DNA from: Candidatus Zhuqueibacterota bacterium
Lineage (GTDB): Bacteria; Zhuqueibacterota; Zhuqueibacteria; Residuimicrobiales; Krinioviventaceae
Assembly: GCA_016934825.1 (NCBI GenBank)
Contig: JAFGSB010000067.1
Span: 7,280 to 71,279, forward strand
DNA: 64,000 nucleotides
Direction: 5' to 3'
Shown: in pieces, positions 25,845-49,184 of the stretch
Numbering within the stretch: the stretch's first letter is position 1
How the letters are laid out: every line of letters begins with the position of its first letter
Made by a program: the position numbers and the translations under genes
Notes under the pieces: generated by a model
What the model was told of the DNA's origin: nothing
The model's input: the letters and a program-made list of their open reading frames with translations, nothing else
Databases searched by the model: none

Positions 25845-25873
25845 AATTATTACTCTAACGATTAAAAAATAAT

Positions 25874-32926: not shown

Positions 32927-33379
32927 ATGAAATTACATATAATTTTGATTTTTTCAGTAATTAGCCTGTTTTCTGTGAAAAGTGTTTTATCACAGCAACT
33001 GGTGTCCGTTCATGCGACACAATTGGAACCGAGAAAAGAAGCCGGTTACAAATTTGTAATCGAAACCTCTGTTCCGGTTACGGAAAATACTTCTTTTGAT
33101 ATTATTTTCCCTCAAGTCTTTTTATTGAACAATTTAATTTTATGTAGCTCTACGACAATGGACGGCGGATTGATAGTGAACGTAAAAAATGATACGGTCC
33201 GGGTTTCTCGTTTTGGTCCCGGAACAACTTTGTCCGCCGGGCAGATCGATATCTCCGTGTCTTCGGTGATCAACGCCGCGGATATGCAGCCGGATTATGA
33301 TTTCGAGATCCTGCAATATGATGACGACCGTCAGGTTTCGCAAATCAAATCCTTACATAAAGTTGAACAAATTCAATAA
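32927..33379 (+). CDS. Small secreted protein, paralog of the N-terminal domain of the downstream giant adhesin
   Basis: Signal peptide. ...HATQLEPRKEAGYKFVIETSVPVTENTSFDIIFPQVFLLNN... parallels TITPTDNTYGQSATYTFTFTTQTIIPADGKIAFIFPAQFNLIY at the start of the 3127-aa protein. Confidence 0.6.
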   Translation: MKLHIILIFSVISLFSVKSVLSQQLVSVHATQLEPRKEAGYKFVIETSVPVTENTSFDIIFPQVFLLNNLILCSSTTMDGGLIVNVKNDTVRVSRFGPGTTLSAGQIDISVSSVINAADMQPDYDFEILQYDDDRQVSQIKSLHKVEQIQ

Positions 33380-33417
33380 CAAAAACAGCCATATTTAATT
33401 CGAAAAAGGGTGTCATT

Positions 33418-36400
33418 TTGAATACATTAAAATATATTCGTGTAGCGATTATTCTTTTATTATCAGCAGTTCCGGCACTCGTGCAGGGAGCGCCCCTTAC
33501 CGGTGTAACGATTACACCCACTGATAACACCTACGGTCAGTCGGCAACGTATACATTTACATTTACCACGCAAACAATAATTCCAGCGGACGGGAAAATT
33601 GCATTCATATTTCCGGCTCAATTCAATTTAATTTATCTTAATAGTTGTGGCACCGGAACTCCAACAATTCTTAACGGAGGATTTAATAATCCACCGCCGA
33701 TTGAAAATGATGGTACAGGCAATCAGACTGTGATTGTTGCCCGGAAGGGGCCGGGGAATACTCCAGTTCCAGCAGGATCAACAATCAGCGTGCTTTTGGG
33801 CATGGTTACAAATCCCTTAAATCCGTCGTCTGCGGATATAATCGCAATCGAGACAAGGAATGTAAGTAACGGTGTTTTGGATACCGGCCAGTCTTCCGTA
33901 AGTCTTGCCGGACCGATAAACAGTTTTACGCTGTCCAACCCGGCGGGAGTGACCGCCGGCATGCCGTTTTCGTTGTCCGTCTCCAACGCGGTCGACGGCA
34001 ACGGCAATCCGGCCAGCGGCACCATACAAGTGACCACGAAAACCGGCGGCGGTGAAGCCCCGGACGGGACCGACCCTTCGGTTCAGGATATCGTGGTTAC
34101 GGCCGGAAACGGCAGCGCCCAGCAGACTTTATATAAAGCCGAATCCGGCGTCGTCCTCACCGGTATCCTGTCGTCGGACGGTTCGGTAACGGACGATACC
34201 AGTCCCTTTACCGTTGGCAGCGCGGGGATCAATTCGTTTACCATGACCGGCGTGCCGACAAACGTCCAGGCCGGCGTCAGTTTTACGAACATTACGGTCA
34301 CCGCGCTGGATGTTTATGAGAATACCGTCTCGGATTATACCGGATCGGTTTGGTTTACCACGACATCATCGGGCTATACCCTGCCATATTACGCGGGCCA
34401 GCCGTACACATTTCAACTGGCCGACAACGGATCGCATACATTTACGAATTTTATATTACGGGAGGCCGGCAATCAAACCCTGACCATCACCGACGGAACC
34501 CGCAGTACGGTTTCCGGCAATATCCAGGTCAATGCCGGTCCGATTGCCGATTTTACGTTCGCGGCAAGTCCGTCGCCCACGGCCGGACAGCAAATCAGGT
34601 TAAACGTGACCAGCGCCGTCGACGCGGCCGGCAATCCGCTGAATGTCCCGGTGGCCCTTTCTTTTGTCGGCGGGGGCAGTCACAGTTCGCCCAACGGCCA
34701 GACGCCGGTTTTGCCGGATAATATCAATGTGGTTAACGGTTCCGGATACACGGATATCGTTCTTTTTAACGCCGAAAGCAACCTGCAAATCCAGGCGGTG
34801 TCCGGCGGGATCACCCGGACCACGGCGCCCTTTACGGTTGCGCCGGGGAACCTTTTCCGGTTCGGCATTACAGGGTACCCGGCCAGCACGGTCAGCGGCA
34901 ATCCGTTCACCTCGGATGTGAACGTAACCGCGTATGACGTCTATGGAAACCAGAAAACCAACTATGCCGGTACAGTCGGTTTCAGTTCAACGGACAATTC
35001 CGCCGATTTACCTTCTTCCGCCGGACTAACAGTCGGAACCAGAACATTTTCCGGCAGCAGCTTTGTTTTGAGAACCGTCGGCAATCAACGGATTTTTGTT
35101 TCCGATTTAAGCGGGTCCGGTGTATCCGATACGACGAATTATATAAATGTTACAAATCCCGCCATCTCCATTACTGAAATTACCCCTTCCCGAACGACAG
35201 TGACACAGGGCCAGACGACCCCATGGACCGTAACGATGGGAGTTCACAATTCCGGGGCTTCAACGATTACTATATCGGCAAATGAATTGCAAACCTATAT
35301 TAAATTTACCAGGGGCGGGAATGATTATACATCGCAATATACGATAGACGGACCGCAGGGTAGCTTTGTTCTGACCGGCGGAAGCACGACTTTTTTAACT
35401 TTTTCGATAACACAAACCGGAACAACCACCGGGGTTATTGATATTTTCGGCCGGGTTGCAACTACCACGGGCGGTTATACCAATTCTATTTTGAGCGACG
35501 TATATGGCGGCATTGAAGTACAAAGCCCGGAAGCTCTTCAGATCGTGTCCATAACGCCTTCCCAGCAAACCGTTACTTCGGGAGACAATACCCACAACTG
35601 GACGGTAGCCGTCCAGTTAAGAAACAACGGCGGCAGCGAAGCGGGAATCGATTTTGCATCCAGCAGTCTGGCGTCCCAGGCAATTGTCGTCTTTCAAAGA
35701 CCGACAACTTTCCAGGACGCGACAACGACCCTGAAAGCAAACGAAACCAAGACAATGATATTTACAGTAACGGAAAATTCCACATTACTCGGAGCCCATA
35801 CTATAAACGCCCAGATCCAATATCATGTGATCAATACCGGTGAAAACAAAAGTCTGCCCCCGGCCAATCCCGGGACCGTTACGGTGCAGGCGCCGTCAAA
35901 TCTGCTGGTCACCAGCGTTATCCCCACGCGGAACCAGTTGACAATCGGCAGTTCCACGGAGTGGGATATTCGTGTTCTGGTTAGCAATACCGGCGGTTCG
36001 GATGTTAATCTTGATTTAACTCAGGCAAATACCTGGGTGAAAATATTTAGTGGCGCTACCGAGGTGACCGATTTTGATATAACCTGGCCGACGGCGCTGA
36101 AAAACACGGGAAATACCACACTCGCAGCAGGTTCACAGGATGAGCTTGTTTATCATGTAACCCAGAATTCCTTTTCCGCCGGGACAATGGATATTCTTGC
36201 CAGGGCACAGGGGACGGAACCGAACAGGGCATTGATCATATTTTACGAAACATCGGTGGGAGACGGCCATTCCGGAACGGTGCAGATGCAGTTGCCGTCC
36301 AATGTTTCCTATGTGAGTTCCAGTTTACAGCCGACCAGCGTGTTTCCGCGAACTCCGGCTGAATTTCAAATTTCAGTAAGCAACACCGGCGGTGCAACCG

Positions 36401-39400
36401 TAGAACTGGAACCGGCGCAGACGACGATCCAGTTTAATGATGCGGTTAACGGAGGAAACAGTATCTTTTCCGCTACGCTCGATCCCGCGTACGGCACAAC
36501 AGTCGCCCCGGGCACAACGGAACTTCACTTTCAAAGCAAACTGGTGTCCGGCGATTTTATACCGGACAGTTATCCGTTGCAGGTCACTTTAAACGGTACG
36601 GAAAACGGCAGTAATTTCCAGAGAATACTTAATTTGACGAGTGATCTGGTCACGGTCGGGGAACCCGGCGATCTGGCGGTTACCGCCATCACGCCGAGTG
36701 TTCAAACCATTACGCAGGGACAGCAAAACACGTGGTATATCGATATTAATGTCGAAAACAATGATGTCAGCGATATGCGGCTGCAAAATATGGCCCTAAC
36801 ATTCAATTATAACACCCAGAATATTACGGATCAGTTTACCATAACCTATCCGACAGTATTGGTGGGCAGCGGTAATAATGTCCTGCCGAGCAATACATCC
36901 GATGTTTTGCGTGTAACCATCAATTCGGTTGCGGCTAACGCCCCGACCGGTTCCATCCTGCTTTCCGCCGAAGTGCAAATGGTGGATGTCAGCGACGCCG
37001 GACGGACTTTTACGGACCAGTTATTCAATGCCGCGCAAATTACCTGTCAGTCGCCCGCGAATGTACAAATCAACAACATTTACGCCAGCCAGACGACCGT
37101 GACCCAGGGGCAATCCATTCCCTGGAATGTAACGGTAAAACTGACAAACTCCGGTGAAAGTAAAGTCAGACTGAGGTCCGGCAGTGCGCTGACTTTAAGC
37201 AGAGGCAATCAATATTTTACGGTATCCAATCCGACAACATTTCTCGGCAGCGGCAATAATGAACTGGGAGGAGGCACGGAAGACAGCCTCAGATTTGTGG
37301 TCACGTCCGTTAGTCCTTCGGTACCCCTGGGCGCGTTTACCATATTTGCGACCATCCTGACCGAAGAAGTAAATACGCTCAATCCTCTGTCGGGACAATC
37401 CAATTACATATCGCTTAAAATGCAGGAAAACGCACAGATCCGCCTTGATCGCATTTTTGCGGATTTAAGATCCGGGTCGCTGGTCAATACCAACCAGGAG
37501 TTTTATATAAAAGCCCAGTTAACCAATCCGGGCGGCAGTAACGGCGATATGGTTAAAAGTGTAACGCTTAATTTGAGCTCTTCGTCTCCGGGATTTACAT
37601 TTCCAAACGGAACTACGGTCACCATAGATTCAATTGATGCCGGCCAAACCAAAACATCCGAACCCGGTATATTAGTCAGGGCTTCGAACCTGTCAAATGT
37701 CAGGACGGTTATCAACGCGAATATGACCAGCGCCGTGGCAAGAAATACGGGCCTGCCCGCACAGGTTTTAACACCCTTATCCAATTCAACGGAAATTACG
37801 ACACAAACCCCCGGCAACCTCGTCGTGCAGAACGTGATAGCGCAGGAAGATACAATCGTCTCCGGAACGCTGGCCCCCTGGACCATCAAAGTCGCCATTA
37901 TCAATTCGGGTGTGGGCACACTGCTGCTGAAAAAACCGCAGGATTCCGATGTGTCTATTAACCGGGAAGGTTACGTTATTAAGGCGGACCCGGTCTGGAC
38001 CGATTCCCTGTTGATCGGCGGAGAGCTGGACACCCTTGTATACACCGTTACCAATACGCCATCCGCCAGCGGCGTGTTTACGATTACCGCCAATATTCAG
38101 GCGGAGGATTATAATGATTCAAGCATAGGGGTGTTTACAAAATCCGGGCAAACCCAGGTTTATTTTACCAAAACGTCCGCCGTCGGAATTACGGAAACGT
38201 ATATGGATCCGGCCACACCGAATGTTGACGCGAACGGCGTCGGGCATGTGAATATAACCCAGGTGTTTAATGTAAGAGTAAAAATCGAGAACAAGGCCGA
38301 CCAGGCCCTCGATTCGGTGCGGGTAAAACTGCTGGCCCCGAATTCGCTTGTCAGCAGTCAGATCCTTATTACCAATATCGGTTTCGGCGAGGACAAGGAA
38401 GGTGTGTTCACCGTGCAGGCGGCCGATGTGGAAAATCTTGTCGGTGAAACATTAAGGTCCGAAATCGTATATGCCTATGGACGCGACGGGACGCAATCCA
38501 AAATATCACCCGCCCAGGATGATTCGGTTGAGATTAAAATCTACTATCCGGCGCGTCTGCAAATCGTCAGTACTGAGAACCTGGCGCCGAATCCTGAAAA
38601 AAAGGTCAGCCAGGGACAGAATTTTCCTGTTGAAGTAAAAGTGGCGAATCTGGGATCGGAAACGGCAAAGGAAATCAGGGTCTCATTAGCCACCTCCAGT
38701 GCGCAGCACGCGACGGTTCTTGAAACGCCCATGACAATCGATGAGACCATAGCCGGCGGCGATACCGGTACGGTTGTTTTTACCCTGAAAGCCGGTAATA
38801 ATACTGCGGCCGGTCTGGTCAGTATTTATTCAAATCTGTTTGATGCAAAAGGAGAAAACAACAATCAGCAGCCGGCATTTCTCGAGCCGGGTGATAATGA
38901 CTCTACCTACGCGGACCTTGAAAAAGGCGCGGATTTGCTGATATTAAATCTTATTGCCGATGTTGAAAACAATGAAATTATCGCTAATTACAGCCAGAGT
39001 CCCTGGAACCTGAATATTGAATTATTTAACGGCGGGGAAGCTGATCTTGAGATTGTAAATTTAAACAACAGTAATATCAGTTTTACGGTAGACGGTCAGC
39101 CGGATAATACATATGACGTGCGGCCGCCGTCGAAATTAAAACATGCCGGTGATTTAATATTACGCGCCGGTCAAACCGACACCTTGGCATTCAGTATAGC
39201 CGAAAACGGGGAAATCGCCGGGAATGCCGTGGTGAAAGCGCAAATATTCGGCCGCGATATGAATATCGGGCCGGCCAGCAATTTGACCGCTATTGATTCA
39301 ACGGACATTTATGTTATTTCCGAAGCCGTTGTACAAATTGTGGAAACATCCATAAACAGTAATGTGCACGATAATGACGGAAAGGGCCTGGTAAACAGAG

Positions 39401-42400
39401 GTCAGAATTTTGTAGTGAGTGTGCTTGTCCGGGCCGGCCAGCTTCTGGGAGTTGATTCCGTTCTGATACAGTTAACGACGAACGGAAATTCCATGTCCGA
39501 ACCGGATACTTTTCAACTTGACAGTATCAACCGGGACTCTGAAATACGGGCGATTTTTAATTTGCAGGCTGATGACAGCTGGCCGGAAATTCAGGGTGAA
39601 CAGGAAGAGATGTTTACGGCAAAAATTCTTTCCGCTTTGTCCAAAAACAGCCAGTTGCCGGCGCGAATTCGTCCGCCGGACAAAACGACCAACGCCCAGG
39701 CAAACCTGCGTATACAGCGCAGCGCCAATTTAAAACTATCGTTGCTCTATAATTCCCCGTTGGACAGTGTATTAACACTCGGACAGCAATTTGATATTAT
39801 CGCACGAATTCATAATCTTGGCACGGCACAGGTCGACATCGGCAAAGTGCAATTGACGCCGCCCACCGGCTATGAAATCAAACTTGCCTCGGAATTGTAT
39901 TCCGCCGAACCCGTGGAACGTCAGTTTACTATTGAAGACGGCGAAGAATATAAAGACGTCCTGTTTACTTTCAGAGCGCCGAATGCAAATTCCGCTAAAA
40001 GCAAGATAAAAGGTAAAATATCTCAAATACCTCTGGATAGAAATACCAATTCACCGGCGGCCATACTGCAAAGCGCGGATTCATTATATGTCCGAACATC
40101 CAGTTCATCATTAAATATACACAGTTTTACAATTTTAAAACCGCAGGGCGCCAAAGATTTTGAGCTGTCGACCGAACAGCCGTTGACATTACAGGCAGTT
40201 ATTACGTCAACATCAAATTTACAGTATCGAAAAGCACGGCTGAAATTCCCGGATAATTTACCCGGCGATGTTATTTATACTTTAAACAACAGCGATGCGG
40301 AAGTAGATATTACCAGCAATCCGGATACGATCAGCTGGCAGCTCAATGCGCCTTCGGTGAAATTTGAAAATGTTCATAAATTTTATGTGGATGCCGAGGC
40401 GGTTGAAGCAGGGAAAACCAAAACCGTAACCGACAGCCTGTCAATTTACCGTGTTGTGAACAGGGCCAATATTGCCATTGAATTCTTTGAGGCGGTTAAT
40501 GAATTTGGGACAATCAAGCAGGAACGGGAAGCATATTTTTCAAAATTTCAACAAAATATCATCCTGCGCGCCCGAATTAAAAACCAGGGCGACGCCAATA
40601 TCACCGGAACGGGCAAATTAAAGCTGGACCTTGGTCAGAGCGGTTTAACGCTTACCAGTGAATACCAGGGACTGGTTGAACAAAATTTCACACAGGAAAC
40701 GGAAGATATAATATGGAAAGTAAATGCCGGGCCGATTAACAACGATGGTTTTAATATTACGGTCGAAATCAGTCAGGCGCCAAATGATGAAAACACAAAC
40801 GAAACCGCAAAAACGGCGGATGATGCAAGTAAACGAACAATGCGGGTTTGGGTAACGGAACTTGGAAAAGTGAGAATTGTGAACAAAAGGGCGTGGATCT
40901 CGTCCCCGATTGGCGCGGTTGACAATATTGTATCGACGGATCAAACGTTCACAGTTAAAACCGAGGTCAATTCGGACAATGTGGATAAAAACAGAATTAC
41001 CGCCCGCCTGGTTGCGCCAGAAGCCTTCCGGGTGATTCAGAGCACTCAAAATGTAACTTTAGGATTTAACAGGGAAGTAACCTGGGAAGTGACCGCCCCC
41101 AGCGACGCCTCCCTGTCCGACAGCCTGAAAGTGCTGGTAACCGGCTACGATGACAATTCGGGCCTTGAATCGAAAGATTCTTCCAATGCCGTTTTTATTC
41201 GAACCGTACCGAAAACTTCATTTAAAATTGATCCCAAAATCACCTATCCGGACAGCTTCCAGGAAAGTGTTTCAACAGGCCAGGAATTTTCCCTGACGGC
41301 GACCATTCTTCACCAGGGGGCGTCATATATAAAAGCGGACAGTTTTATTGTGGAATTGAATTCTCCAAAGGAATTTACACGCATTGACGACAAAAGACAG
41401 ATATTCAAGTTTGCGCAATTTGAAAAAGGACTTCACCCCACATGGAGGTTGAACGCGCCGACTCAAAAACCGGCGGGAGGAGAATTTTCCAACTTTACGA
41501 TCAATTTATTGGAAGTTCCACGTGATGAAAATTCATATATAGCCGGAGAGGTAAAGAACGATTCGGTAACCCATAAAATTTCGGTTGTGGACCGGGCACT
41601 GACAAAAACAGACGCATATTTGCTGGGTCAGGTAAATGCCGATACAGGGAATGTCAGAATCGGCAGTGAATTCAATGTGGTTTTGAGATTAACAAATTTG
41701 GGTTTCGCCCGTTTTATCGATAATTATAGGGTTAAAATTCATTTACCCGCGAACGGGTATACGACCCAGGATGCGGAAAAAACCGGAATCATTACGAATG
41801 GAATGATCGATTCTCTTGTATGGAAAATTAAAGCACCAAACACGATAAATTCCAATCTGGACATCATCTCCTTTACATTATTGGACCCGCCAAATGATCA
41901 GTACGCCAAAACAAATGCGGCTGTATTAAATAATGAGGCCCATGTCAGAGTAAAGCTGGAAACGGGCAAATTAATTGCCGAAACGTATCCCGTGAGAACC
42001 AAATCGGCGGTAATAAAAGGTGGTAAAAACGTTCCGATACTGGGATTGGTTTTCAGAAATAAAGATGTTTCAAGTAAAGTGAATTCTTACCTGACGAAAT
42101 TGTTTCTGACTATCAGGGACAGGGAAGGAGAAATAATCAATCCGTCTACAGCGGTCAACCGTATTGCTGCAGTGCGGCATTCGGATTATGATCATATTTT
42201 TGCACAGACCACAGATTTTAGCGTGACGGATAAACCCGGCCAGGTTATGCTGAATTTCAGAACTTTAAAAATCGATACAATCAGAAGCGCACAAAGGGAC
42301 ACAGTAGATATCATTGTTGATGTTTCGGAATTTAATGAAACGGACTTTAAAATTTCTTTATCAGACTCGCTGCCGATATACGCCGTTGATGATAACGGGC

Positions 42401-42801
42401 AGTTGCTCGATCTGGCAAATGCCAATGGCGAAACGATGAGTTATGTCGATTTCGAATCCCTGCTTGCTGTTGTTGTGGAAGGGGAAATGAAAAAGGCTTT
42501 TTATAACTATCCCAATCCATTCGGAAGAAACGATAAACCCACAACGAATTTTATTTACTATCTGGAACAGGACAGCGCCTTAAAATTGCAGATATTCACA
42601 CTAACAGGCGATCTTGTTAAAAAGTGGGAATTTCAGAGTACCGATCCGGAAGGGGCGGCCGGATTGCACCAGGGAGAGCCTAATTTGATATGGGACGGCA
42701 GAAATGGAAAAGGCGAGGTGATCATGAACGGCGTTTATCTGGCGTACCTGACTCTTGAAGGAGGAAATACGGCTTCGACTAAAATTGTCTTTGTAAAATA
42801 A
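33418..42801 (+). CDS. Giant secreted adhesin-like protein (3127 aa): Ig-like repeats, ~20 tandem CARDB-like domains, type-A T9SS C-terminal sorting domain
   Basis: Signal peptide (AVPALVQGA). N-terminal third holds repeated G/T/A/P-rich Ig-like units (..NGNPASGTIQVTT.., ..GNPLNVPVALSFV..). The middle holds recurrent ~120-aa units such as ITPSRTTVTQGQTTPWTVTMGVHNSG..., ITPSVQTITQGQQNTWYIDINVEN..., IYASQTTVTQGQSIPWNVTVKLTNSG.... The C-terminus FYNYPNPFGRNDKPT...IWDGRNGKGEVIMNGVYLAYL...TKIVFVK matches the Por secretion C-terminal (TIGR04183-like) signature. Confidence 0.85.
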   Translation: MNTLKYIRVAIILLLSAVPALVQGAPLTGVTITPTDNTYGQSATYTFTFTTQTIIPADGKIAFIFPAQFNLIYLNSCGTGTPTILNGGFNNPPPIENDGTGNQTVIVARKGPGNTPVPAGSTISVLLGMVTNPLNPSSADIIAIETRNVSNGVLDTGQSSVSLAGPINSFTLSNPAGVTAGMPFSLSVSNAVDGNGNPASGTIQVTTKTGGGEAPDGTDPSVQDIVVTAGNGSAQQTLYKAESGVVLTGILSSDGSVTDDTSPFTVGSAGINSFTMTGVPTNVQAGVSFTNITVTALDVYENTVSDYTGSVWFTTTSSGYTLPYYAGQPYTFQLADNGSHTFTNFILREAGNQTLTITDGTRSTVSGNIQVNAGPIADFTFAASPSPTAGQQIRLNVTSAVDAAGNPLNVPVALSFVGGGSHSSPNGQTPVLPDNINVVNGSGYTDIVLFNAESNLQIQAVSGGITRTTAPFTVAPGNLFRFGITGYPASTVSGNPFTSDVNVTAYDVYGNQKTNYAGTVGFSSTDNSADLPSSAGLTVGTRTFSGSSFVLRTVGNQRIFVSDLSGSGVSDTTNYINVTNPAISITEITPSRTTVTQGQTTPWTVTMGVHNSGASTITISANELQTYIKFTRGGNDYTSQYTIDGPQGSFVLTGGSTTFLTFSITQTGTTTGVIDIFGRVATTTGGYTNSILSDVYGGIEVQSPEALQIVSITPSQQTVTSGDNTHNWTVAVQLRNNGGSEAGIDFASSSLASQAIVVFQRPTTFQDATTTLKANETKTMIFTVTENSTLLGAHTINAQIQYHVINTGENKSLPPANPGTVTVQAPSNLLVTSVIPTRNQLTIGSSTEWDIRVLVSNTGGSDVNLDLTQANTWVKIFSGATEVTDFDITWPTALKNTGNTTLAAGSQDELVYHVTQNSFSAGTMDILARAQGTEPNRALIIFYETSVGDGHSGTVQMQLPSNVSYVSSSLQPTSVFPRTPAEFQISVSNTGGATVELEPAQTTIQFNDAVNGGNSIFSATLDPAYGTTVAPGTTELHFQSKLVSGDFIPDSYPLQVTLNGTENGSNFQRILNLTSDLVTVGEPGDLAVTAITPSVQTITQGQQNTWYIDINVENNDVSDMRLQNMALTFNYNTQNITDQFTITYPTVLVGSGNNVLPSNTSDVLRVTINSVAANAPTGSILLSAEVQMVDVSDAGRTFTDQLFNAAQITCQSPANVQINNIYASQTTVTQGQSIPWNVTVKLTNSGESKVRLRSGSALTLSRGNQYFTVSNPTTFLGSGNNELGGGTEDSLRFVVTSVSPSVPLGAFTIFATILTEEVNTLNPLSGQSNYISLKMQENAQIRLDRIFADLRSGSLVNTNQEFYIKAQLTNPGGSNGDMVKSVTLNLSSSSPGFTFPNGTTVTIDSIDAGQTKTSEPGILVRASNLSNVRTVINANMTSAVARNTGLPAQVLTPLSNSTEITTQTPGNLVVQNVIAQEDTIVSGTLAPWTIKVAIINSGVGTLLLKKPQDSDVSINREGYVIKADPVWTDSLLIGGELDTLVYTVTNTPSASGVFTITANIQAEDYNDSSIGVFTKSGQTQVYFTKTSAVGITETYMDPATPNVDANGVGHVNITQVFNVRVKIENKADQALDSVRVKLLAPNSLVSSQILITNIGFGEDKEGVFTVQAADVENLVGETLRSEIVYAYGRDGTQSKISPAQDDSVEIKIYYPARLQIVSTENLAPNPEKKVSQGQNFPVEVKVANLGSETAKEIRVSLATSSAQHATVLETPMTIDETIAGGDTGTVVFTLKAGNNTAAGLVSIYSNLFDAKGENNNQQPAFLEPGDNDSTYADLEKGADLLILNLIADVENNEIIANYSQSPWNLNIELFNGGEADLEIVNLNNSNISFTVDGQPDNTYDVRPPSKLKHAGDLILRAGQTDTLAFSIAENGEIAGNAVVKAQIFGRDMNIGPASNLTAIDSTDIYVISEAVVQIVETSINSNVHDNDGKGLVNRGQNFVVSVLVRAGQLLGVDSVLIQLTTNGNSMSEPDTFQLDSINRDSEIRAIFNLQADDSWPEIQGEQEEMFTAKILSALSKNSQLPARIRPPDKTTNAQANLRIQRSANLKLSLLYNSPLDSVLTLGQQFDIIARIHNLGTAQVDIGKVQLTPPTGYEIKLASELYSAEPVERQFTIEDGEEYKDVLFTFRAPNANSAKSKIKGKISQIPLDRNTNSPAAILQSADSLYVRTSSSSLNIHSFTILKPQGAKDFELSTEQPLTLQAVITSTSNLQYRKARLKFPDNLPGDVIYTLNNSDAEVDITSNPDTISWQLNAPSVKFENVHKFYVDAEAVEAGKTKTVTDSLSIYRVVNRANIAIEFFEAVNEFGTIKQEREAYFSKFQQNIILRARIKNQGDANITGTGKLKLDLGQSGLTLTSEYQGLVEQNFTQETEDIIWKVNAGPINNDGFNITVEISQAPNDENTNETAKTADDASKRTMRVWVTELGKVRIVNKRAWISSPIGAVDNIVSTDQTFTVKTEVNSDNVDKNRITARLVAPEAFRVIQSTQNVTLGFNREVTWEVTAPSDASLSDSLKVLVTGYDDNSGLESKDSSNAVFIRTVPKTSFKIDPKITYPDSFQESVSTGQEFSLTATILHQGASYIKADSFIVELNSPKEFTRIDDKRQIFKFAQFEKGLHPTWRLNAPTQKPAGGEFSNFTINLLEVPRDENSYIAGEVKNDSVTHKISVVDRALTKTDAYLLGQVNADTGNVRIGSEFNVVLRLTNLGFARFIDNYRVKIHLPANGYTTQDAEKTGIITNGMIDSLVWKIKAPNTINSNLDIISFTLLDPPNDQYAKTNAAVLNNEAHVRVKLETGKLIAETYPVRTKSAVIKGGKNVPILGLVFRNKDVSSKVNSYLTKLFLTIRDREGEIINPSTAVNRIAAVRHSDYDHIFAQTTDFSVTDKPGQVMLNFRTLKIDTIRSAQRDTVDIIVDVSEFNETDFKISLSDSLPIYAVDDNGQLLDLANANGETMSYVDFESLLAVVVEGEMKKAFYNYPNPFGRNDKPTTNFIYYLEQDSALKLQIFTLTGDLVKKWEFQSTDPEGAAGLHQGEPNLIWDGRNGKGEVIMNGVYLAYLTLEGGNTASTKIVFVK
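35160..41880 (+). repeat. Tandem in-frame array of ~120-aa CARDB-like domain repeats inside the giant adhesin gene (approximate bounds)
   Basis: At least ~18 successive units, each starting with a (V/I)(T/S)I.P(S/T)...T(V/I)TQGQ...W.V.V.N.G pattern, visible in the translation. The units are divergent at the DNA level. Confidence 0.6.
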
Positions 42802-42867
42802 GGTAAAATAAAAAGTTATTTTGATTAAACAAGTTAATTTGTATATTAAAATAGAGAGTATTAAGCG

Positions 42868-44874
42868 GTGAAGAAAATAAAAATAAAATTGGTCACGTTA
42901 TCATTATTTTTATTATTATGTATGACGGGACAGACACTCGCACAGGCCGGTGATGATAACTATGGTGAATGGGGAGGCACTACGGATATTTTTGATTATC
43001 CTGTTGGCGCGAGGGCGATGGCTTTGGGCGGCGCATATGTCTCTGTTGTTAATGATCCGTATGCATTATACTGGAATCCTGCAGCGCTGGAAAATGTACA
43101 AAGAGTGGGGTTCGGCATCTATCACACAAATCTTCCAATGTCTACGGATTATAACTATTTTTCATTTACATATCCGACGCTTTCTTTTGGTACTTTTTCC
43201 GCCGGTATTCTACGAATTTCTACAGGTGATATTCAACTCACCGAGGACGATGCCGCGATAATCGGAGAAGCAAATTCAAGTCGTTCTTTATTTATGTTCG
43301 GGTATGGTTTCAGGCCGTTCCCGTGGTTGTATATGGGAACCAACTTTAAAATCGAACGAACAAGTTTGCCAAATTATGAAGGAAACGGAAATTTTAATGA
43401 ATCCGCTCTCGGAGCAGACATGGGATTGATGTTTAAACCTCAAACCCGGGAAGGATTTTTCCGCGATTTTGCTGTGGGTTTCAATATTCAAAACTTTCTA
43501 CAGCGTCAGCAACGCGTGATTGAGAAACTGGATAAAACACCGCGCAACTTTTTGTTCGGATTGTCAAAAGGATTCGGGAGCGATCAGGGCTCGAGTCATT
43601 TTCTTGTGGCTTACCAAATGGACATAAACGGTAACAATGATCATGTTCCGACTTTTCACCATTTTGGCCTTGAATATGATTTCAATAAAAGTTTGTTTTT
43701 ACGGTTAGGGTATGATTACCGTGGTGAACAGGCGAATGAAGCTTCGGGCGGAAAGGTGACATACGGTATGGGAGTGAGCCTGTTCGGCGTACAGCTCGAT
43801 TACTCTTACTGGACACCCCGATATGATGTGTTAAGCAACAGCCATCGGATTTCACTCGTTTATAATGTAGGCAAAACCCGTAAACAGCGGCTGGACGAGC
43901 TGCAGACCGCGGAACTGGAACGATTTAAACAGGAAGTTGAACGCCAGCGTCAGTATGAGCGGCGGGAGACCATTGTAAAAGGGATGGAGCAGGCCCAGTT
44001 ATTTTATGAAAACGGCGATTTCCCGAGGGCATATAGCGCCACAAACCGGGTGCTGGCTCTGGACGAAACCGGAAATGACCCGGAGTTTAGTAAAGCGCGG
44101 ACATTACTGGCGGATATCAACACGGCAATTGAGCAACAGCGAAATACAGAATTCAATAAAGAATTGGTGCGTACCCGTGAAGAAGCCGAATTAAAACGTA
44201 AACAACAGCAGGTTAAGGAACATTACCAAAAAGCGCTGGCCTTTTTTGAAACGGAAGATTATACCGAAGCAATGCGGGAATGTGACAGGGCATTGGAAAT
44301 TGATGCGAACAGCGACCTGGTCAGAGAACTTCGTAAAACCGTGGAAGAAGACCTGAAAAAGAAGATTACCGTACTGGTAACCCGGGCCAATTCGCTTGAG
44401 CAAAGCGGTCGTCAATATGACGCGATCCAATACTATAATCAGGCCATACAACTGGCTAACGGCAACGAAAAGCTGGAAGGTCTGATAGACAGTAAATTGA
44501 GAAAACTGGAGAGACGCCTGTCACGGGATGAAACGTTACGCCGTGCCAATGAATATGAAATTGCCAAAGAGTGGGATAAAGCGGCGGATATGTACAAAGA
44601 GGCGCTCAAATTTGAACCGAACAATGAGTCTTTACGTCAAAAATATGATGATATGTATGCCCGGGCTAATGCGACCACGGGTAAATTAACCGGCAATGCA
44701 AAAGATTTGTATTCCCAGGGTTTCCGTGCTTTTAATAATGGAGAATATGAGGAAGCCTTAAAATTTTACGAACAGGCTCGGGAGGAGCAGCCCTTTAATA
44801 AAACACTGCTCCGCGCCATAGATGTTGCCAAGGAACGGTTGCGAGCCAAACAATCAGCGGGTTCCGGAAAATAA
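42868..44874 (+). CDS. Outer-membrane beta-barrel of the PorV/PorQ/PorP(SprF) superfamily fused to a C-terminal TPR/coiled-coil domain (GTG start)
   Basis: Signal peptide (CMTGQTLAQA). The N-terminal motif GARAMALGGAYVSVVNDPYALYWNPAAL is typical of the PorV/PorP-like family. Alternating beta-strand pattern runs to ~aa 335. The rest (aa ~340-668) is TPR-like helical repeats (YYNQAIQLANGNEK..., YEEALKFYEQAREEQPFNK). Confidence 0.6.
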   Translation: MKKIKIKLVTLSLFLLLCMTGQTLAQAGDDNYGEWGGTTDIFDYPVGARAMALGGAYVSVVNDPYALYWNPAALENVQRVGFGIYHTNLPMSTDYNYFSFTYPTLSFGTFSAGILRISTGDIQLTEDDAAIIGEANSSRSLFMFGYGFRPFPWLYMGTNFKIERTSLPNYEGNGNFNESALGADMGLMFKPQTREGFFRDFAVGFNIQNFLQRQQRVIEKLDKTPRNFLFGLSKGFGSDQGSSHFLVAYQMDINGNNDHVPTFHHFGLEYDFNKSLFLRLGYDYRGEQANEASGGKVTYGMGVSLFGVQLDYSYWTPRYDVLSNSHRISLVYNVGKTRKQRLDELQTAELERFKQEVERQRQYERRETIVKGMEQAQLFYENGDFPRAYSATNRVLALDETGNDPEFSKARTLLADINTAIEQQRNTEFNKELVRTREEAELKRKQQQVKEHYQKALAFFETEDYTEAMRECDRALEIDANSDLVRELRKTVEEDLKKKITVLVTRANSLEQSGRQYDAIQYYNQAIQLANGNEKLEGLIDSKLRKLERRLSRDETLRRANEYEIAKEWDKAADMYKEALKFEPNNESLRQKYDDMYARANATTGKLTGNAKDLYSQGFRAFNNGEYEEALKFYEQAREEQPFNKTLLRAIDVAKERLRAKQSAGSGK

Positions 44875-44893
44875 AAAAGGACAACTATTTTTA

Positions 44894-47800
44894 TTGAAAA
44901 GCACGATTAAAGAACAACTTAAAGTACCTGCTCATGTTGACAGGCTTGGTGATTTACGGGATTTTGTTACCCGGGTCGGGAAAAAGCACGGCTATTCGGA
45001 AAGGATAATAAATGCTTTTAAACTTTCCATCGATGAAGCCGCAACGAATATAATCAAGCACGCGTATCGAGACTGGGAAGGGGATATCGTTATCCGCTCC
45101 CTGATAAAAAAGAACAGTCTGACATTTATACTGATAGACAAAGGAAAGTATTTTGATCCCCGTCAGGTAAAGGACCCGGATTTAAAAAAATATGTAGATA
45201 TAGGTAAAAAGGGCGGGCTCGGAATTTTTATGATGCGCCGCCTGCTGGATAGAATTGATTATCGAAAAACGGAAAACGGGAATGAGTTGTGGTTAACCAA
45301 AAACCGTGATGAATCCAAACGGCGAAAAATTTCTGTTGCGTCAATTCCATTGGGTTTAAAAGCGCGTTACTGGTTAATTTCAATGGTTGTTTTCTCATTT
45401 ATTTTACTGCTGGTGTATTTGTTTTTTTTTCTAAAGCAAGATAATATCGTATTAGATCAATATATCGAAAACGGGGGCAAAGCCTGTTCTGTTCTTGCCA
45501 ACGATCTTGCAAAAAATTTAACCGATTCGAATGATATAGGCACGGATGTTATCGACGAATTGATCAATGTTGGCAGTCAGGACCTTTTGGTATTAAACAA
45601 GGCGCATACATCCGTGAATACATTATTAAAATCCGAATATAGTGATATTTTACTCAATGCTATTGTTGTAGATAATATACAGAATATTTTGGCAATTGCG
45701 GAAGAAGATTCTTTTTTTAAAGTACTGGAAACTTTTGAAATTCCTGAGGAGCATAAAAAAAAACGCGACAATGTCTACCAGTATCGAATGAAAAGTGGGC
45801 CTGAAATAGTTGACATGGAATGGCCAGTTTTAGATGATGAAAACAGGAAGTTGTGTACGGTACATTTATTCATTGATTTCAAAAATATTAAAAAAGATAT
45901 TACCGGTTCGCGGTCAAATGTTTTTCATCTTGGTCTATTGGTATGGATAATCGGCGCTGCCGGATTGTTTTTATTAATTTATCTTGTCATGAACCCGTTC
46001 CGAAGACTGCAGGAGTGGGTTAAAGCGCTTGGACAACCTGGAGTGGCTGACGAACTGGACATAGATACCTCAACCGAAGTCGGAGAAATTGCCAAAGCTT
46101 TCAGCGATATCACGATGAAACTGCGGGACTCACAGGCCAATCTTGCCGAACAGGAACGGTTACAAAAGGAAATGCAGGTTGCCCAGGAAATCCAGCAGAC
46201 GCTATTACCGTCAAAATTTCCGGAACTGGAAGGATATGATTTATCTGCATTTTATGAGGCGGCAAAGGAAGTAGGCGGCGATTATTTTGATTTTGTTGAA
46301 GTCGATAAAGATACTTTGGGTATCGTTGTCGCCGATGTTTCCGGAAAGGGTGTTCCCGGCTCGCTCGTCATGACCATGATCCGTACCGCTTTGAGAACCG
46401 AAGCCCGAGGAATGAAGGATGCAGCCGAGGTATTAACCCGGGTGAACGATTTTGTCGTTAATGATATGAAAAAGGGTATGTTTGTAACACTTTTTTATGT
46501 TATTATTGATTCCAAAAGGCGGAGAATAAATTTTGCCAGTGCGGGTCATAATCCGATGATCTTGTATCGTGCCAGTGTAAATAAAACATACTATTTGAAT
46601 CCCCGCGGCTTTCCGATCGGTATCTCATTGCCGGACAAAGAGTTGTTTAAAAAATCCCTTCAGTCGGATTCTATCGCTCTTGCGGAAGATGATATACTGC
46701 TTGTGTATACAGACGGTGTTACCGAAGCCATGAATTCAAAAAGGGAATTGTTTGGGGAGGAGAGATTTTTAAAAGTTATCAGGGATTACGGAAAATTAAA
46801 GGCGGAAGATTTTATCGATAACCTGAAAAAGGAAATTATTTCCTTTACGGAGGAAAATCCGCAAAACGATGATATCACTTTGGTCGCAATTAAAGAACAA
46901 ACATCTGTGGAAAAGCTTGAGTTCAAACGCGCCAAAGAAGCCTTTGATCTGATACAACAAGGTAAAAACGTTAAAGAGGCATGTAAAAAAGCCGGTATTT
47001 CCACTTATTCTTATTATAATAAATTCAAGACAAAGTTTGAAGAAGAAGGCGTCGAACAGTATAAAATTGAATCTCCAGAAGATGATTTGGAAGTTAAGCA
47101 TTTAAGTATTGAGGAAAAAACAAAAATATATGATGTTATAAAAAGATTTCCCGAATACGGGGCAAAAAGAATTAGCGAAGAGTTGAATACGGAACACTAT
47201 AATTTTACACGAATATCTCATTCACGCGTGTATGAGGAACTTGTTCAATCAAGATTAAACACAAAAAAATTAAGAGAAGCGTTTGTATTGCGGGGTACAA
47301 AGAAAAAACGCATGAAACCACCGGGTACGCCGCTATTAACCATTGATGGAAAGGTAATTGTTGATAAACCCAAAGTAATTAAAGAGGTTGAAGAGGTTGA
47401 GACCGAAGCCCCGGACACAGCAGTAAGTGTTCCTGAAGAAAAAACGAAAACATTTCCTAAGGTAGCGGAAAAGACCAAAAAGCTGAAAAAGGCTAAAAAA
47501 TCCGAATCGGAAATAATTGAACCGGTTAAAGAGAGTGTTGAAACAGCAAAAAGCGATCAGGAGTTAACGGAAGTCCCGCCGGAGAAAGACGAGGATATAA
47601 TTCAGGTTGAGAATGTATTCGAAAATCTCGGAAGTGAAGAGAAACCTGAACCTGTCCCGGAGACCCCGGAAACCGATACCTTCGAAGAACATCTGGATAC
47701 TGACACATTTGCAGATTTTATTGTTCATGATGATTTTGACAGCATTCAGGATGTAGAGGAAGCGATTGAAAAAATCGAATCGGAAAAAAAGCAGGAAAAG

Positions 47801-49135: not shown

Positions 49136-49155
49136 GCAACAACACGGCAAATAAT

Positions 49156-49184
49156 AAATTATTATTGACATTTTTATGATTAAC
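49156..49184 (+). promoter_or_regulatory. Putative sigma70-type promoter (TTGACA-17-TATATT) upstream of the STAS gene, leaving a ~190-nt leader
   Basis: TTGACA at 49156..49161, 17-nt spacer, TATATT at 49179..49184. Confidence 0.4.

What the first reader, a model, noticed from the sequence alone, without database searches (positions are those of the whole stretch)
32927..44874. A 3127-aa T9SS-type adhesin with ~20 CARDB-like repeats is flanked by a small N-domain paralog and a PorV/PorP-like beta-barrel fused to TPR
The giant ORF has a Sec signal. Its Ig-like N-terminal third has a visibly higher GC content than the rest of the window. A long in-frame array of divergent ~120-aa CARDB-like domains follows. 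It ends with a C-terminal domain whose hallmarks (NYPNPF...IWDGRNGKGE...NGVYLAYL...KIVFVK) match the type-A Por/T9SS sorting domain. Immediately upstream, a 150-aa secreted protein duplicates only the first domain of the giant; it may be a decoy, a chaperone or a minor subunit. Immediately downstream, a 668-aa protein combines an N-terminal PorV/PorQ/PorP(SprF)-family outer-membrane barrel with a ~330-aa TPR domain. The barrel motif is GARAMALGGAYVSVVNDPYALYWNPAAL. In T9SS organisms SprF/PorP-like barrels are cargo-specific partners encoded next to their adhesin. A barrel carrying its own TPR scaffold is unusual, and I do not recognise it as a described arrangement. It suggests a dedicated secretion or anchoring unit for this single cargo.
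Basis: partly seen in the sequence, partly recalled or inferred. Interest (0 to 1): 0.6.

Follow-up and report, generated by a model that had tools for sequence, protein, structure and literature searches.

The report
Giant surface protein with dedicated PorV–TPR barrel
An uncultured KSB1-phylum bacterium encodes a 3127-residue surface protein with a type IX secretion tail next to an outer-membrane barrel of the PorV/PorQ family fused to a periplasmic TPR domain; the pairing is conserved across the phylum, resembles known adhesin-carrier pairs of Bacteroidota, and has not been described as a fusion.

Summary
The three ORFs are at the stated coordinates. The giant has a signal peptide, a tip domain, two A-B Ig-like pairs, 18 tandem ~125-aa beta-sandwich repeats, a unique pre-CTD domain and a C-terminal domain that matches the T9SS type A model, not type B. 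The 150-aa protein is a true paralog of the giant's first domain (hhalign 98%, E 8.5e-14). The 668-aa protein is a PorV/PorQ-family 14-strand barrel, not PorP/SprF, followed by a ~330-aa helical/TPR domain. Three points are new. The window is from a candidate division KSB1 MAG. The unit is conserved in gene order in about 36 other genomes and in two distant lineages. It always continues into a fused RsbW-like kinase/PP2C phosphatase membrane sensor, with a STAS protein next or, in the most distant lineage, three genes further on. The barrel-TPR fusion is not rare: at least 123 clusters at 50% identity carry it. The best reading is a dedicated carrier/anchor barrel for one CTD cargo whose TPR tail docks to something periplasmic, analogous to PorE-PorP-PG1035 and SprF-SprB. 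"CARDB-like" is only weakly supported. T9SS core genes could not be checked. New variant of a known kind, of moderate interest.

The parts
32927..33379 (+). Small secreted protein (150 aa) with a signal peptide. It is a paralog of the giant's N-terminal tip domain.
   Evidence: ORF. 100% identical to NCBI 'hypothetical protein JXQ31_07910 [candidate division KSB1 bacterium]'. hhalign of A3 against A4: probability 98.1%, E 8.5e-14. Present upstream of the giant in all 7 in-clade loci whose flank reaches that far. No Pfam or NCBIfam hit.
33418..33927 (+). Giant protein: signal peptide (aa 1-24) and N-terminal tip domain (aa 25-170).
   Evidence: Hydrophobic segment at aa 4-22. Profile-profile match to the small protein. 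No Pfam family above cut-off.
33928..35133 (+). Giant protein: two copies of an A-B pair of ~80-aa Ig-like domains (A 177-253, B 274-360, A' 386-464, B' 482-564). This is the highest-GC segment and is nearly free of Lys and Glu.
   Evidence: Iterative profiles. Only a faint Invasin_D3 hit for B (E 0.004, below cut-off). Composition.
35134..41943 (+). Giant protein: 18 tandem, divergent beta-sandwich repeats of about 125 aa (aa 573-2842), distantly related to CARDB/NEW3/DUF11.
   Evidence: 18 contiguous domains. (alignment A5, about 20% identity). (CARDB 3/18, NEW3 2/18, DUF11 1/18). (NEW3 28.6 bits against cut-off 24.4, best stretch aa 1731-1800). (AF2 pLDDT 85, all-beta). (generic Ig-like sandwich matches only). 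(repeats 1:1 colinear with orthologs).
41944..42474 (+). Giant protein: unique ~175-aa pre-CTD domain (aa 2843-3019), single copy.
   Evidence: one copy in the window (E 1e-61) and one at the equivalent position in L001, L032, L039 and L004. No Pfam hit.
42475..42801 (+). Giant protein: T9SS type A C-terminal sorting domain (aa 3020-3127, plus stop). It carries an insertion of about 20 aa ('T.aGLHQG') relative to the model.
   Evidence: conserved NYPNPF, WDG.NG.G..V.NGVY, KIAVVK. (TIGR04183 23.6/23; 23 of 23 orthologs; CTD ends of the PorU/PorZ models). (best PDB match is the PorU CTD, 6za2, E 0.022). (below threshold when the whole protein is scanned or against Pfam).
42868..43875 (+). PorV/PorQ-family outer-membrane protein: signal peptide, highly conserved N-terminal segment (aa 36-78) and 14-strand FadL-type barrel (aa 79-336).
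   Evidence: NF033709 PorV_fam 141.5 bits against cut-off 90. AF2 pLDDT 82 with the strands listed. Foldseek top hits are PorV chains 8gl6_F (E 3.9e-12, TMt 0.67) and 6h3i_F (TMt 0.71), followed by TodX/FadL. Conservation 0.83 in aa 36-78.
43876..44874 (+). C-terminal long helix (aa 338-381) plus TPR/helical-repeat domain (to aa 665) of the same protein. Inferred to be periplasmic. Its lone conserved cysteine is C472.
   Evidence: TPR_2 76 bits, TPR_1 72 bits. Helices in the model. As conserved as the barrel (0.58 against 0.57), and C472 is present in 39 of 45 homologs. Topology is inferred from the rule that an even-stranded OM barrel has both termini in the periplasm.
44822..49135 (+). Conserved neighbour: membrane sensor with an RsbW-like kinase (HATPase_c_2), two TM segments flanking a ~165-aa periplasmic loop, HAMP, a PP2C phosphatase (SpoIIE), an HTH-like and acidic region, and C-terminal TPR. 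The likely true start is TTG at 44894.
   Evidence: SpoIIE 174 bits, HATPase_c_2 84 bits. (TM at 181-199 and 366-384; ortholog N-termini). Directly downstream of the barrel gene in every locus with downstream sequence.
49374..50045 (+). Conserved neighbour: STAS-domain protein (anti-sigma-antagonist type) with a ~110-aa C-terminal extension.
   Evidence: STAS 68.5 bits. Follows the sensor gene in every in-clade locus that extends that far, and lies three genes further on in L004. A sigma-70-like promoter match (11 of 12) lies at 49165-49193.

Best explanation
This is a cell-surface fibre module of candidate division KSB1 (Zhuqueibacterota), conserved across the phylum. The giant protein is exported by Sec. 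It is then taken across or onto the outer membrane through its type A T9SS-style C-terminal domain. The PorV/PorQ-family barrel encoded next to it acts as its dedicated carrier and anchor: the barrel's surface loops hold the CTD, as PorV holds substrate CTDs and as PorQ and PorP/SprF hold PorZ and SprB. The barrel's ~330-aa C-terminal TPR domain hangs in the periplasm and docks the barrel-fibre complex to a periplasmic partner. That is the job done in trans by TPR-containing PorE for PorP, and by the short C-tail of SprF for the GldK track. The 18 beta-sandwich repeats form a stalk of fixed length. The stalk presents the low-charge, Thr/Ser/Gly-rich Ig-like domains and the tip domain away from the cell. 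The small paralog of the tip domain is a secreted accessory that probably pairs with or caps the tip. The adjacent RsbW-kinase/PP2C-phosphatase membrane sensor and the STAS protein probably regulate the module or report on it.

Shown: the domain identities, the paralogy, the fold of the barrel and the conserved gene order.

Inferred: CTD-barrel binding, the periplasmic location and docking role of the TPR domain, the stalk geometry, and the regulatory link.
For: - CTD is type A: 23 of 23 orthologs; window CTD 23.6 against cut-off 23; PorU CTD is the best PDB hit; motifs conserved.
- Barrel is PorV-like: 141.5 against 90; top Foldseek hits are PorV in the translocon structures, including the substrate-bound 8gl6.
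- The pairing is conserved. The order giant, barrel-TPR, kinase/phosphatase holds in L001-L040, that is every locus in which the flanks are present. It also holds in two lineages whose barrel is only 28% identical: L004 (giant 2109 aa) and L056 (giant 1597 aa, same repeats and CTD). L004 has lost the Obg/DprA neighbours, so there the linkage is not merely frozen housekeeping synteny.
- The same 'CTD protein immediately upstream of a PorV-family barrel' pair recurs with unrelated cargos in MAGs labelled Elusimicrobia, Calditrichaeota and Deferribacteres, and in unlabelled MAGs.
- The TPR domain is as conserved as the barrel, and the fusion is kept in at least 123 clusters at 50% identity.
- Precedents from papers: the PorE-PorP-PG1035 complex and SprF-SprB anchoring (PMC9143113); the periplasmic C-tail of SprF couples the adhesin carrier to GldK (PMC12635249); substrates bind the extracellular loops of the carrier protein (PMC10994853).
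- The repeats are 1:1 orthologous between species, which fits a structural stalk.
Against: - No T9SS core gene (SprA/Sov, PorK/L/M/N, PorU) was seen in the 64-kb window, and none could be searched for in the rest of the genome. No paper in the library links KSB1 to T9SS.
- The CTD only just reaches the curated cut-off, and fails it when the whole protein is scanned (13 bits).
- The barrel reaches no equivalog cut-off (PorQ 70/220, PorV 50/250). It could be the organism's general PorV rather than a cargo-specific one.
- In the KSB1 clade the gene order is conserved all the way into Obg, DprA and GltX, so adjacency by itself is weak evidence there.
- No direct test of CTD-barrel binding was possible. 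The periplasmic partner of the TPR domain is unknown, and there is no OmpA_C or other peptidoglycan-binding domain.
Confidence: 0.6

Rival explanations
1. The barrel-TPR protein is simply this phylum's general PorV, the shuttle for all type A CTD cargos. The giant is an ordinary cargo that is cleaved by a PorU-like sortase and attached to lipopolysaccharide. Their adjacency would then be inherited synteny with no special pairing.
For: The gene sits in one conserved, chromosomal housekeeping context in every one of the ~38 genomes recovered for the family, and the gene order is frozen through Obg, DprA and GltX in the KSB1 clade. The barrel matches the PorV/PorQ subfamily model well, and PorV structures are the best fold matches.
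Against: The pairing persists in L004, where the housekeeping neighbours differ. Other PorV-family barrels also sit directly after a CTD-protein gene, which suggests that cognate pairs are the rule. Canonical 344-400-aa PorV-family genes exist in MAGs with the same 'uncultured Cytophagia' and 'Calditrichaeota' labels, although I could not show that they share a genome with the fusion. The barrel scores far below the PorV equivalog cut-off (50 against 250).
Confidence: 0.2
2. The system is independent of T9SS. A CTD-bearing protein and a PorV/FadL-like barrel form a self-contained two-gene surface-display pair that needs no SprA translocon. In this reading the barrel, helped by BAM and its TPR tail, is itself the route or the sole anchor.
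For: CTD-protein/PorV-like gene pairs occur in MAGs labelled Elusimicrobia (L041-L043), a phylum not known from my own knowledge to have T9SS. No T9SS core gene is seen near any of the loci examined. In L057 a PorV-like barrel is followed by a separate BamD/YfiO-like TPR gene.
Against: A 14-strand FadL-type barrel is too narrow to pass a folded 3127-aa multi-domain protein (inference from PorV/FadL structures). All experimentally studied CTD proteins need the SprA/Sov translocon (PMC10994853, PMC9143113). KSB1 belongs to the FCB superphylum (PMC11683472), where T9SS components are expected. MAG taxonomic labels are unreliable: KSB1 MAGs appear here as 'Cytophagia', 'Actinomycetota' and 'Calditrichota'.
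Confidence: 0.1
3. The C-terminal domain is only a structural FlgD-type Ig domain, and the barrel is a FadL-like transporter of hydrophobic substrates, so the two genes are functionally unrelated.
For: Against Pfam, the CTD's best match is FlgD_ig (17.4 bits, E 0.0045), slightly ahead of CHU_C. FlgD chains appear among the PDB sequence hits. FadL and TodX are strong fold matches for the barrel.
Against: All Pfam matches are below cut-off. In NCBIfam the T9SS models beat the FlgD models for all 23 orthologs, and they cover the whole domain including the NYPNPF start and the K-I-x-V-K end, whereas FlgD hits cover only the WDG..G..NG.Y hairpin. The domain is at the extreme C-terminus in every ortholog. 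PorV ranks above FadL/TodX with clearly better TM-scores (0.67-0.71 against 0.40-0.52), and PorV_fam is well above its cut-off.
Confidence: 0.05

Closest known systems
PorE-PorP-PG1035 complex of Porphyromonas gingivalis, and porP-like/porE-like gene pairs of Flavobacterium johnsoniae (PMC9143113)
   Same: A 14-strand FadL-family outer-membrane barrel holds one CTD-bearing surface protein. On the periplasmic side it is joined to a TPR-containing module that serves as a scaffold or bridge. The cargo, barrel and TPR-protein genes are clustered.
   Different: Here the barrel belongs to the PorV/PorQ family, not PorP/SprF. The cargo has a type A CTD, not type B. The TPR module is fused to the barrel's C-terminus instead of being a separate lipoprotein. 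There is no beta-propeller and no OmpA_C peptidoglycan-binding domain.
SprF-SprB adhesin-carrier pair of F. johnsoniae (PMC9143113, PMC12635249)
   Same: A giant repetitive surface protein is encoded next to its own carrier barrel. The barrel has a periplasmic C-terminal extension that connects the surface protein to an internal structure.
   Different: SprB is 6497 aa (from my own knowledge) with a type B CTD. The tail of SprF is short and works through a CxC disulfide to GldK. The KSB1 tail is a 330-aa TPR domain with a single conserved Cys. No gliding genes were seen here.
PorV, and the PorQ-PorZ and PorV-PorU pairs of the T9SS attachment complex
   Same: Same protein family by HMM (NF033709) and by fold (PDB 8gl6_F and 6h3i_F). 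These barrels bind type A CTDs.
   Different: Canonical PorV and PorQ are about 330-400 aa and have no periplasmic domain. The equivalog cut-offs are not reached (PorQ 70/220, PorV 50/250, PorV2 55/325).
SypE/SypA-type partner-switching regulators (RsbW-like kinase plus PP2C phosphatase in one protein, with a STAS target). This comparison is from my own knowledge.
   Same: The downstream 1437-aa protein carries both HATPase_c_2 and SpoIIE/PP2C domains and is followed by a STAS protein.
   Different: It has no receiver domain. Instead it has two TM segments, a periplasmic loop, HAMP, an acidic region and TPRs. Its target and any link to the surface protein are unknown.

Membership tests
T9SS type A C-terminal sorting domain (TIGR04183 / Por_Secre_tail) | HMM score at or above the curated cut-off of 23 bits | tested here: met
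   The CTD scanned alone scores 23.6 bits, E 3.7e-5. All 23 orthologous CTDs match, best E 1.1e-8. Caveat: the whole protein scores only 13 bits.
T9SS type A C-terminal sorting domain (TIGR04183 / Por_Secre_tail) | Located at the extreme C-terminus, with the conserved motifs (YPNP near the start, G.Y in the penultimate strand, K-hydrophobic-x-hydrophobic-K/R at the end) | tested here: met
   An alignment of 39 orthologs ends in KIAVVK/R, with invariant PNPF and NGVY. The motif definitions are from my own knowledge of published CTD analyses.
T9SS type A C-terminal sorting domain (TIGR04183 / Por_Secre_tail) | The genome encodes the T9SS core (SprA/Sov, PorK/L/M/N, PorU/PorV), and secretion depends on it | not testable with these tools
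   Nothing of the kind is in the 64-kb window. The rest of the genome is not available, and no paper links KSB1 to T9SS.
T9SS type B CTD (TIGR04131 / CHU_C) | HMM match above cut-off | tested here: not met
   CHU_C scores 16.2 bits against cut-off 27. TIGR04131 is absent from the NCBIfam hits for all 23 CTDs at E up to 1.
PorV/PorQ family (NF033709) | HMM score at or above 90 bits over the whole barrel | tested here: met
   141.5 bits, aa 43-333 against model positions 8-325 of 326.
PorV/PorQ family (NF033709) | 14-strand FadL-type outer-membrane barrel | tested here: met
   The AF2 model (pLDDT 82) has 14 long strands between aa 80 and 334. The best PDB fold matches are PorV chains, TMt 0.67-0.71.
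PorV, PorQ or PorV2 proper (equivalogs NF033710, NF033711, NF052325) | Score above the equivalog cut-off | tested here: not met
   PorV 49.9 against 250; PorQ 70 against 220; PorV2 54.7 against 325.
PorP/SprF family (PF11751 / TIGR03519) | HMM match | tested here: not met
   No hit at E up to 0.1 in Pfam or NCBIfam for the window protein. Only one homolog (P0070) has a precomputed PF11751 hit.
CARDB (PF07705) repeats | HMM match of the repeats above the gathering score | tested here: inconclusive
   No CARDB hit on the whole protein. Three of 18 repeats hit at E up to 1, best 5.4e-5. NEW3 hits two repeats, and DUF11 and DUF7507 one each. NEW3 passes its cut-off on the whole protein (28.6 against 24.4). 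The fold is a generic Ig-like sandwich.
TPR repeats | Pfam TPR models above cut-off | tested here: met
   TPR_2 76 bits with 4 stretches, TPR_1 72 bits, TPR_14 53 bits, within aa 364-650.
Partner-switching module (RsbW-type kinase, PP2C phosphatase, STAS antagonist) | All three domain types present in adjacent genes | tested here: met
   HATPase_c_2 84.3 bits and SpoIIE 174 bits in 44822-49135. STAS 68.5 bits in 49374-50045. Phosphorylation of the STAS serine, and the identity of the target, were not tested.

The most novel reading that the evidence does not exclude
The barrel-TPR protein may be a one-piece trans-envelope coupler. Its surface loops would hold the giant fibre. Its periplasmic TPR domain, possibly through the lone conserved Cys472, would link the fibre either to a moving or fixed periplasmic structure, or to the periplasmic loop of the adjacent kinase/phosphatase sensor. 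Load on the fibre, or its occupancy, would then be transmitted to a partner-switching switch in the cytoplasm. This would be a surface-contact sensing or gliding-type device outside Bacteroidota. It would also extend the 2025 principle that a carrier barrel is tethered to an internal track, from a short disulfide tail to a whole protein-interaction domain.
Probability: 0.15. Interest if true: 0.8.

Novelty: new variant of a known kind. Interest (0 to 1): 0.52.

Why it matters
T9SS biology rests almost entirely on two Bacteroidota models. There, carrier barrels (PorV, PorQ, PorP/SprF) and their periplasmic connectors (PorE, and the SprF tail bound to GldK) are separate proteins or short tails.

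Here a sister phylum of the FCB group has fused the carrier and a TPR connector into one polypeptide. It has kept that fusion next to a single giant cargo and a signalling pair across the whole phylum. The fusion is a Rosetta-stone argument that barrel-to-TPR-scaffold contacts are a general design rule of CTD-cargo display.

It also names a large uncharacterised family (at least 123 clusters at 50% identity) for annotation. Finally, it offers a compact system of a few genes in which to test how a surface fibre is connected to the periplasm and to cytoplasmic signalling. KSB1 has no cultured member, so this module is also a candidate for that phylum's main conserved surface structure.

Tried and rejected
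- Self-BLAST of the giant found no internal repeats. A profile approach was needed.
- A whole-giant homolog search failed on time. Searches with the small protein and with the C-terminal 410 aa returned only 5 hits each, so orthologs had to be taken from genome loci.
- Foldseek of the repeat model against PDB gave only generic sandwich matches, all with E above 1e-3.
- I looked for PorU next to canonical PorV genes in L046 and L050 as a handle on the T9SS core. The ~1007-aa neighbour matches only the CTD end of the PorU model, so it is another cargo, not the sortase.
- Horizontal transfer as the cause of the high GC was considered and rejected. The gene is orthologous and colinear across the phylum, and much of the shift is in GC2, driven by amino-acid composition.
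- Promoter and terminator scans were uninformative.
- Rfam found only three tRNAs plus an antisense match to a plastid family that overlaps one of them.
- Literature searches for KSB1 with T9SS, for PorV with TPR, and for T9SS with partner-switching found nothing relevant.


Full report
**1. Observation**

All are on the + strand, with gaps of 38 and 66 nt.

G+C rises to 0.44-0.57 between 33 and 40 kb, against about 0.38 for the rest of the window. By codon position the rise is in GC2 (0.52) and GC3 (0.575) of aa 1-572. That segment is rich in Thr, Ser, Gly and Asn and almost free of Lys (1.0%) and Glu (1.2%). The C-terminal half of the giant has ordinary composition.

**2. Source and context**

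The small protein is 100% identical to 'hypothetical protein JXQ31_07910 [candidate division KSB1 bacterium]' on a 72.9-kb contig. The window is therefore a KSB1 (Zhuqueibacterota) MAG. KSB1 is an uncultured phylum of the FCB superphylum (PMC11683472).

The surrounding genes are chromosomal housekeeping genes, all on the + strand. They include mnmE/mnmG/rsmG, mfd, SurA-like isomerases, hrcA-grpE-dnaJ, pta, obg, dprA, gltX and tRNAs. No T9SS core gene lies in the 64 kb.

**3. Anatomy of the giant**

- Signal peptide: aa 1-24.
- Tip domain: aa 25-170.
- Two copies of an A-B pair of ~80-aa domains: 177-253, 274-360, 386-464 and 482-564. They have only faint Ig/invasin-type Pfam signals.
- Eighteen contiguous repeats of 117-133 aa, from aa 573 to 2842.
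- A single-copy ~175-aa domain, aa 2845-3019, found at the same place in all four full-length orthologs examined (L001, L032, L039 and the distant L004).
- The CTD, aa 3020-3127.

The repeats are only about 20% identical to each other, and self-BLAST misses them. They are nevertheless real, for four reasons:
- Their boundaries abut head to tail.
- BLAST against orthologs gives extra hits shifted by two repeats, E 1e-16 to 1e-25.
- A model built from the 18 window repeats alone folds as a beta-sandwich with pLDDT 85.
- A few repeats hit CARDB (3 of 18, best E 5.4e-5), NEW3 (2 of 18), DUF11 and DUF7507. NEW3 passes its cut-off on the whole protein (28.6 against 24.4).

Foldseek finds only generic Ig-like sandwiches. 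'CARDB-like' is therefore a fair loose description, not a demonstrated family membership.

Each repeat has a 1:1 ortholog in other species, colinear over thousands of residues. For example, repeats 7-12 are 70% identical to L001 over 757 aa. This is an ancient array of fixed length, not a recently expanding adhesin.

**4. The CTD**

On the whole protein TIGR04183 scores only 13 bits. Against Pfam the isolated tail gives sub-threshold FlgD_ig (17.4) and CHU_C (16.2). I therefore collected the tails of 39 orthologs. They are highly conserved: F.NYPNPFG, IFTLTGDLV, WDG.NG.G..V.NGVYLAY, KIAVVK.

I then scanned 23 of them individually against NCBIfam:
- All 23 hit TIGR04183 (best E 1e-8). The window tail scores 23.6 bits, just over the cut-off of 23.
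- All 23 hit the CTD ends of the PorZ, PorU and T9SS-dependent M6-like models.
- FlgD models score lower and cover only the central hairpin.
- The type B model never appears.

The best PDB sequence match of the profile is the CTD of PorU (6za2, E 0.022), with FlgD chains just behind. I conclude that this is a type A T9SS-style CTD with a ~20-aa insertion. The FlgD signal reflects the shared Ig-like hairpin.

**5. The small protein**

Pairwise BLAST to the giant's N-terminus is marginal (E 0.001, but in register). Profile-profile comparison of six small proteins against five tip domains gives probability 98.1%, E 8.5e-14, over 107 columns. The small gene precedes the giant in all seven in-clade loci whose flank reaches that far. 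The paralogy is established. The function of the small protein is not.

**6. The barrel-TPR protein**

NF033709 (PorV/PorQ family) scores 141.5 bits against a cut-off of 90, over aa 43-333. The PorQ, PorV2 and PorV equivalog cut-offs are not reached, and there is no PorP/SprF hit.

An AF2 model built from 45 homologs (pLDDT 82) shows the following:
- a signal peptide;
- a very conserved segment, aa 36-78;
- 14 long strands between aa 80 and 334;
- a 44-residue helix;
- helical repeats up to aa 665.

The best PDB fold matches are the PorV chains of the F. johnsoniae translocon: 8gl6_F (E 3.9e-12, TMt 0.67) and 6h3i_F (TMt 0.71). They rank ahead of TodX and FadL.

An even-stranded outer-membrane barrel has both termini in the periplasm, so the TPR domain is inferred to be periplasmic. 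It is as conserved as the barrel (0.58 against 0.57). It also holds the only conserved cysteine of the mature protein, C472, present in 39 of 45 homologs.

**7. Comparative genomics**

The fusion has about 75 full-length relatives in the 90%-identity database, several of them named 'PorV/PorQ family protein [candidate division KSB1 bacterium]'.

In one-genome-per-species contigs I found 36 loci with the full-length fusion. Wherever the flanks exist, the order is invariably:
- the giant (at least 3000 aa where its start lies within the locus), with the small paralog upstream of it wherever the flank reaches that far;
- barrel-TPR;
- HATPase_c_2/SpoIIE protein (1200-1670 aa);
- STAS;
- Obg.

Two lineages whose barrel is only 28% identical keep the core:
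- L004: a 2109-aa giant with an FlgD_ig-annotated CTD, then barrel-TPR, then the kinase/phosphatase. STAS lies three genes further on, and there is no Obg.
- L056: a 1597-aa giant with about 10 repeats of the same family and the same CTD (E 6e-34). The barrel and TPR are split by what looks like a frameshift. Then come the kinase/phosphatase, STAS, Obg and DprA.

A profile search of 1.84 billion cluster representatives gave 997 hits at E up to 1e-30. Of 142 new representatives in the top 150, 123 have a barrel followed by a TPR domain (median length 639 aa). The fusion is therefore a large, unstudied family, not a one-off.

**8. A wider pattern**

Other PorV-family barrels fetched by the same scan also have a CTD-bearing protein gene ending just upstream:
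- L041-L043, labelled Elusimicrobia;
- L048 and L053;
- L045, L046 and L050, which have TonB-dependent receptor, ~1007-aa CTD protein, PorV, ~770-aa CTD protein.

L055 has a 724-aa CTD protein directly before a 615-aa PorV-type protein.

Several of these barrels also carry non-TPR C-terminal extensions: AMIN in P0081, SH3 in P0079 and a ~190-aa beta-rich domain in the Elusimicrobia-labelled ones. In L057 the TPR (YfiO-like) protein is a separate gene after the barrel. 'Cargo gene plus cognate PorV-like barrel, often with a periplasmic add-on' therefore looks like a general theme.

**9. Mechanism**

Published work supplies the frame:
- Substrates bind the extracellular loops of the carrier protein within the translocon (PMC10994853).
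[quoted passage not shown] SprF anchors SprB. Six porP-like genes of F. johnsoniae lie next to porE-like genes (PMC9143113).
- SprF has two separable functions. It is the carrier and anchor for the adhesin, and it attaches to the periplasmic track through its C-terminal tail (PMC12635249).

The KSB1 protein fits as a single-chain version of this. A PorV/PorQ-type barrel would carry or anchor the giant's type A CTD. A fused TPR domain would make the periplasmic connection.

The identity of the periplasmic partner is open. It could be the periplasmic loop of the neighbouring sensor, a T9SS ring or track, or another envelope protein.

The downstream sensor has this layout: an RsbW-like kinase, two TM segments around a ~165-aa loop, HAMP, a PP2C domain, and then HTH-like, acidic and TPR regions. 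Its likely start is the TTG at 44894, 20 nt after the barrel gene's stop. Together with the STAS protein it forms a partner-switching pair, and its persistent linkage suggests regulation of the module. That link is inference from synteny only.

**10. Limits**

- I could not examine the rest of any KSB1 genome for SprA/Sov, PorK/L/M/N or PorU. No paper in the library connects KSB1 with T9SS.
- Within the KSB1 clade the synteny extends into housekeeping genes, so adjacency there is weak evidence on its own. The distant loci and the cross-phylum pairs carry most of the weight.
- No multimer prediction was possible.

**11. Verdict**

It is a new variant of a known kind: a T9SS-style cargo/carrier pair with the periplasmic TPR connector fused to the carrier, conserved across an uncultured phylum and coupled to a partner-switching sensor. 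Interest is moderate, 0.52.

Noticed in passing
window 44822-50045: A 1437-aa protein combines an RsbW-like kinase, two TM segments, HAMP, a PP2C/SpoIIE phosphatase, an HTH-like region, a long acidic stretch and C-terminal TPRs. It is followed by a 223-aa STAS protein. The sensor follows the barrel-TPR gene in every related locus with downstream sequence, including two distant lineages. STAS follows it wherever the locus extends that far, and lies three genes further on in L004. The annotated ORF overlaps the barrel gene by 53 nt; the likely real start is TTG at 44894.
   Followed up: partly
L041-L043, L045, L046, L048, L050, L053, L055 (positions in notebook entry 3): Unrelated PorV-family barrels also have a CTD-bearing protein gene ending immediately upstream. 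They come from MAGs labelled Elusimicrobia, Calditrichaeota and Deferribacteres, and from unlabelled MAGs. Four loci share the order TonB-dependent receptor, ~1007-aa CTD protein, PorV, ~770-aa CTD protein.
   Followed up: partly
window 44281-44283 (Cys472 of the 668-aa protein): This is the only conserved cysteine of the mature barrel-TPR protein (39 of 45 homologs), and it lies in the periplasmic TPR domain. SprF and PorG are disulfide-bonded to GldK (PMC12635249), so it is a candidate for an intermolecular disulfide. This is untested.
   Followed up: no
L041:9929-11494, L042, L043, L052, L054; proteins P0079, P0081, P0082: PorV-like barrels of other lineages carry other C-terminal add-ons: a ~190-aa beta-rich domain in Elusimicrobia-labelled MAGs, and AMIN, SH3_3 or short TPR domains elsewhere. 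In L057 a separate YfiO/BamD-like TPR gene follows the barrel.
   Followed up: partly
window 33418-35133 versus 38524-42801: There is a strong composition gradient along the giant. The N-terminal 572 aa have 1.0% Lys and 1.2% Glu and about 43% Thr+Ser+Gly+Asn. The C-terminal repeats have ordinary charge. This suggests an uncharged, possibly glycosylated distal end.
   Followed up: partly
window 11945-19122: A cluster of DUF4159 (246 aa), a DUF4175-containing 1118-aa protein, a 610-aa TPR protein (YbgF/BamD-like hits, and a weak PorW/SprE hit of 36.9 bits against cut-off 250) and a 420-aa protein with no family. It lies after three SurA/PrsA-like isomerase genes and looks like an envelope-related operon of unknown function.
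   Followed up: no
window 25161-27813: A PilM-like gene (25874-26818, PilM_2 52 bits) is flanked by two genes with no significant family match (227 and 309 aa). This may be a remnant or part of a type IV pilus or related assembly cluster.
   Followed up: no
window 52328-52528 and 54445-54516: tRNA-Ser(TGA), tRNA-Ser(GCT) and tRNA-Gln(CTG). Rfam also reports a plastid psbI-rps4 3'UTR family on the minus strand at 52475-52527, just at its gathering score (68.5 against 68). It overlaps tRNA-Ser antisense and is most likely a false match.
   Followed up: no
L009, L005, L012 and other loci: MAGs carrying this KSB1-type module are labelled 'Actinomycetota', 'Calditrichota/Calditrichaeota' or 'uncultured Cytophagia' in their records. 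The taxonomic labels of these MAGs appear unreliable.
   Followed up: no
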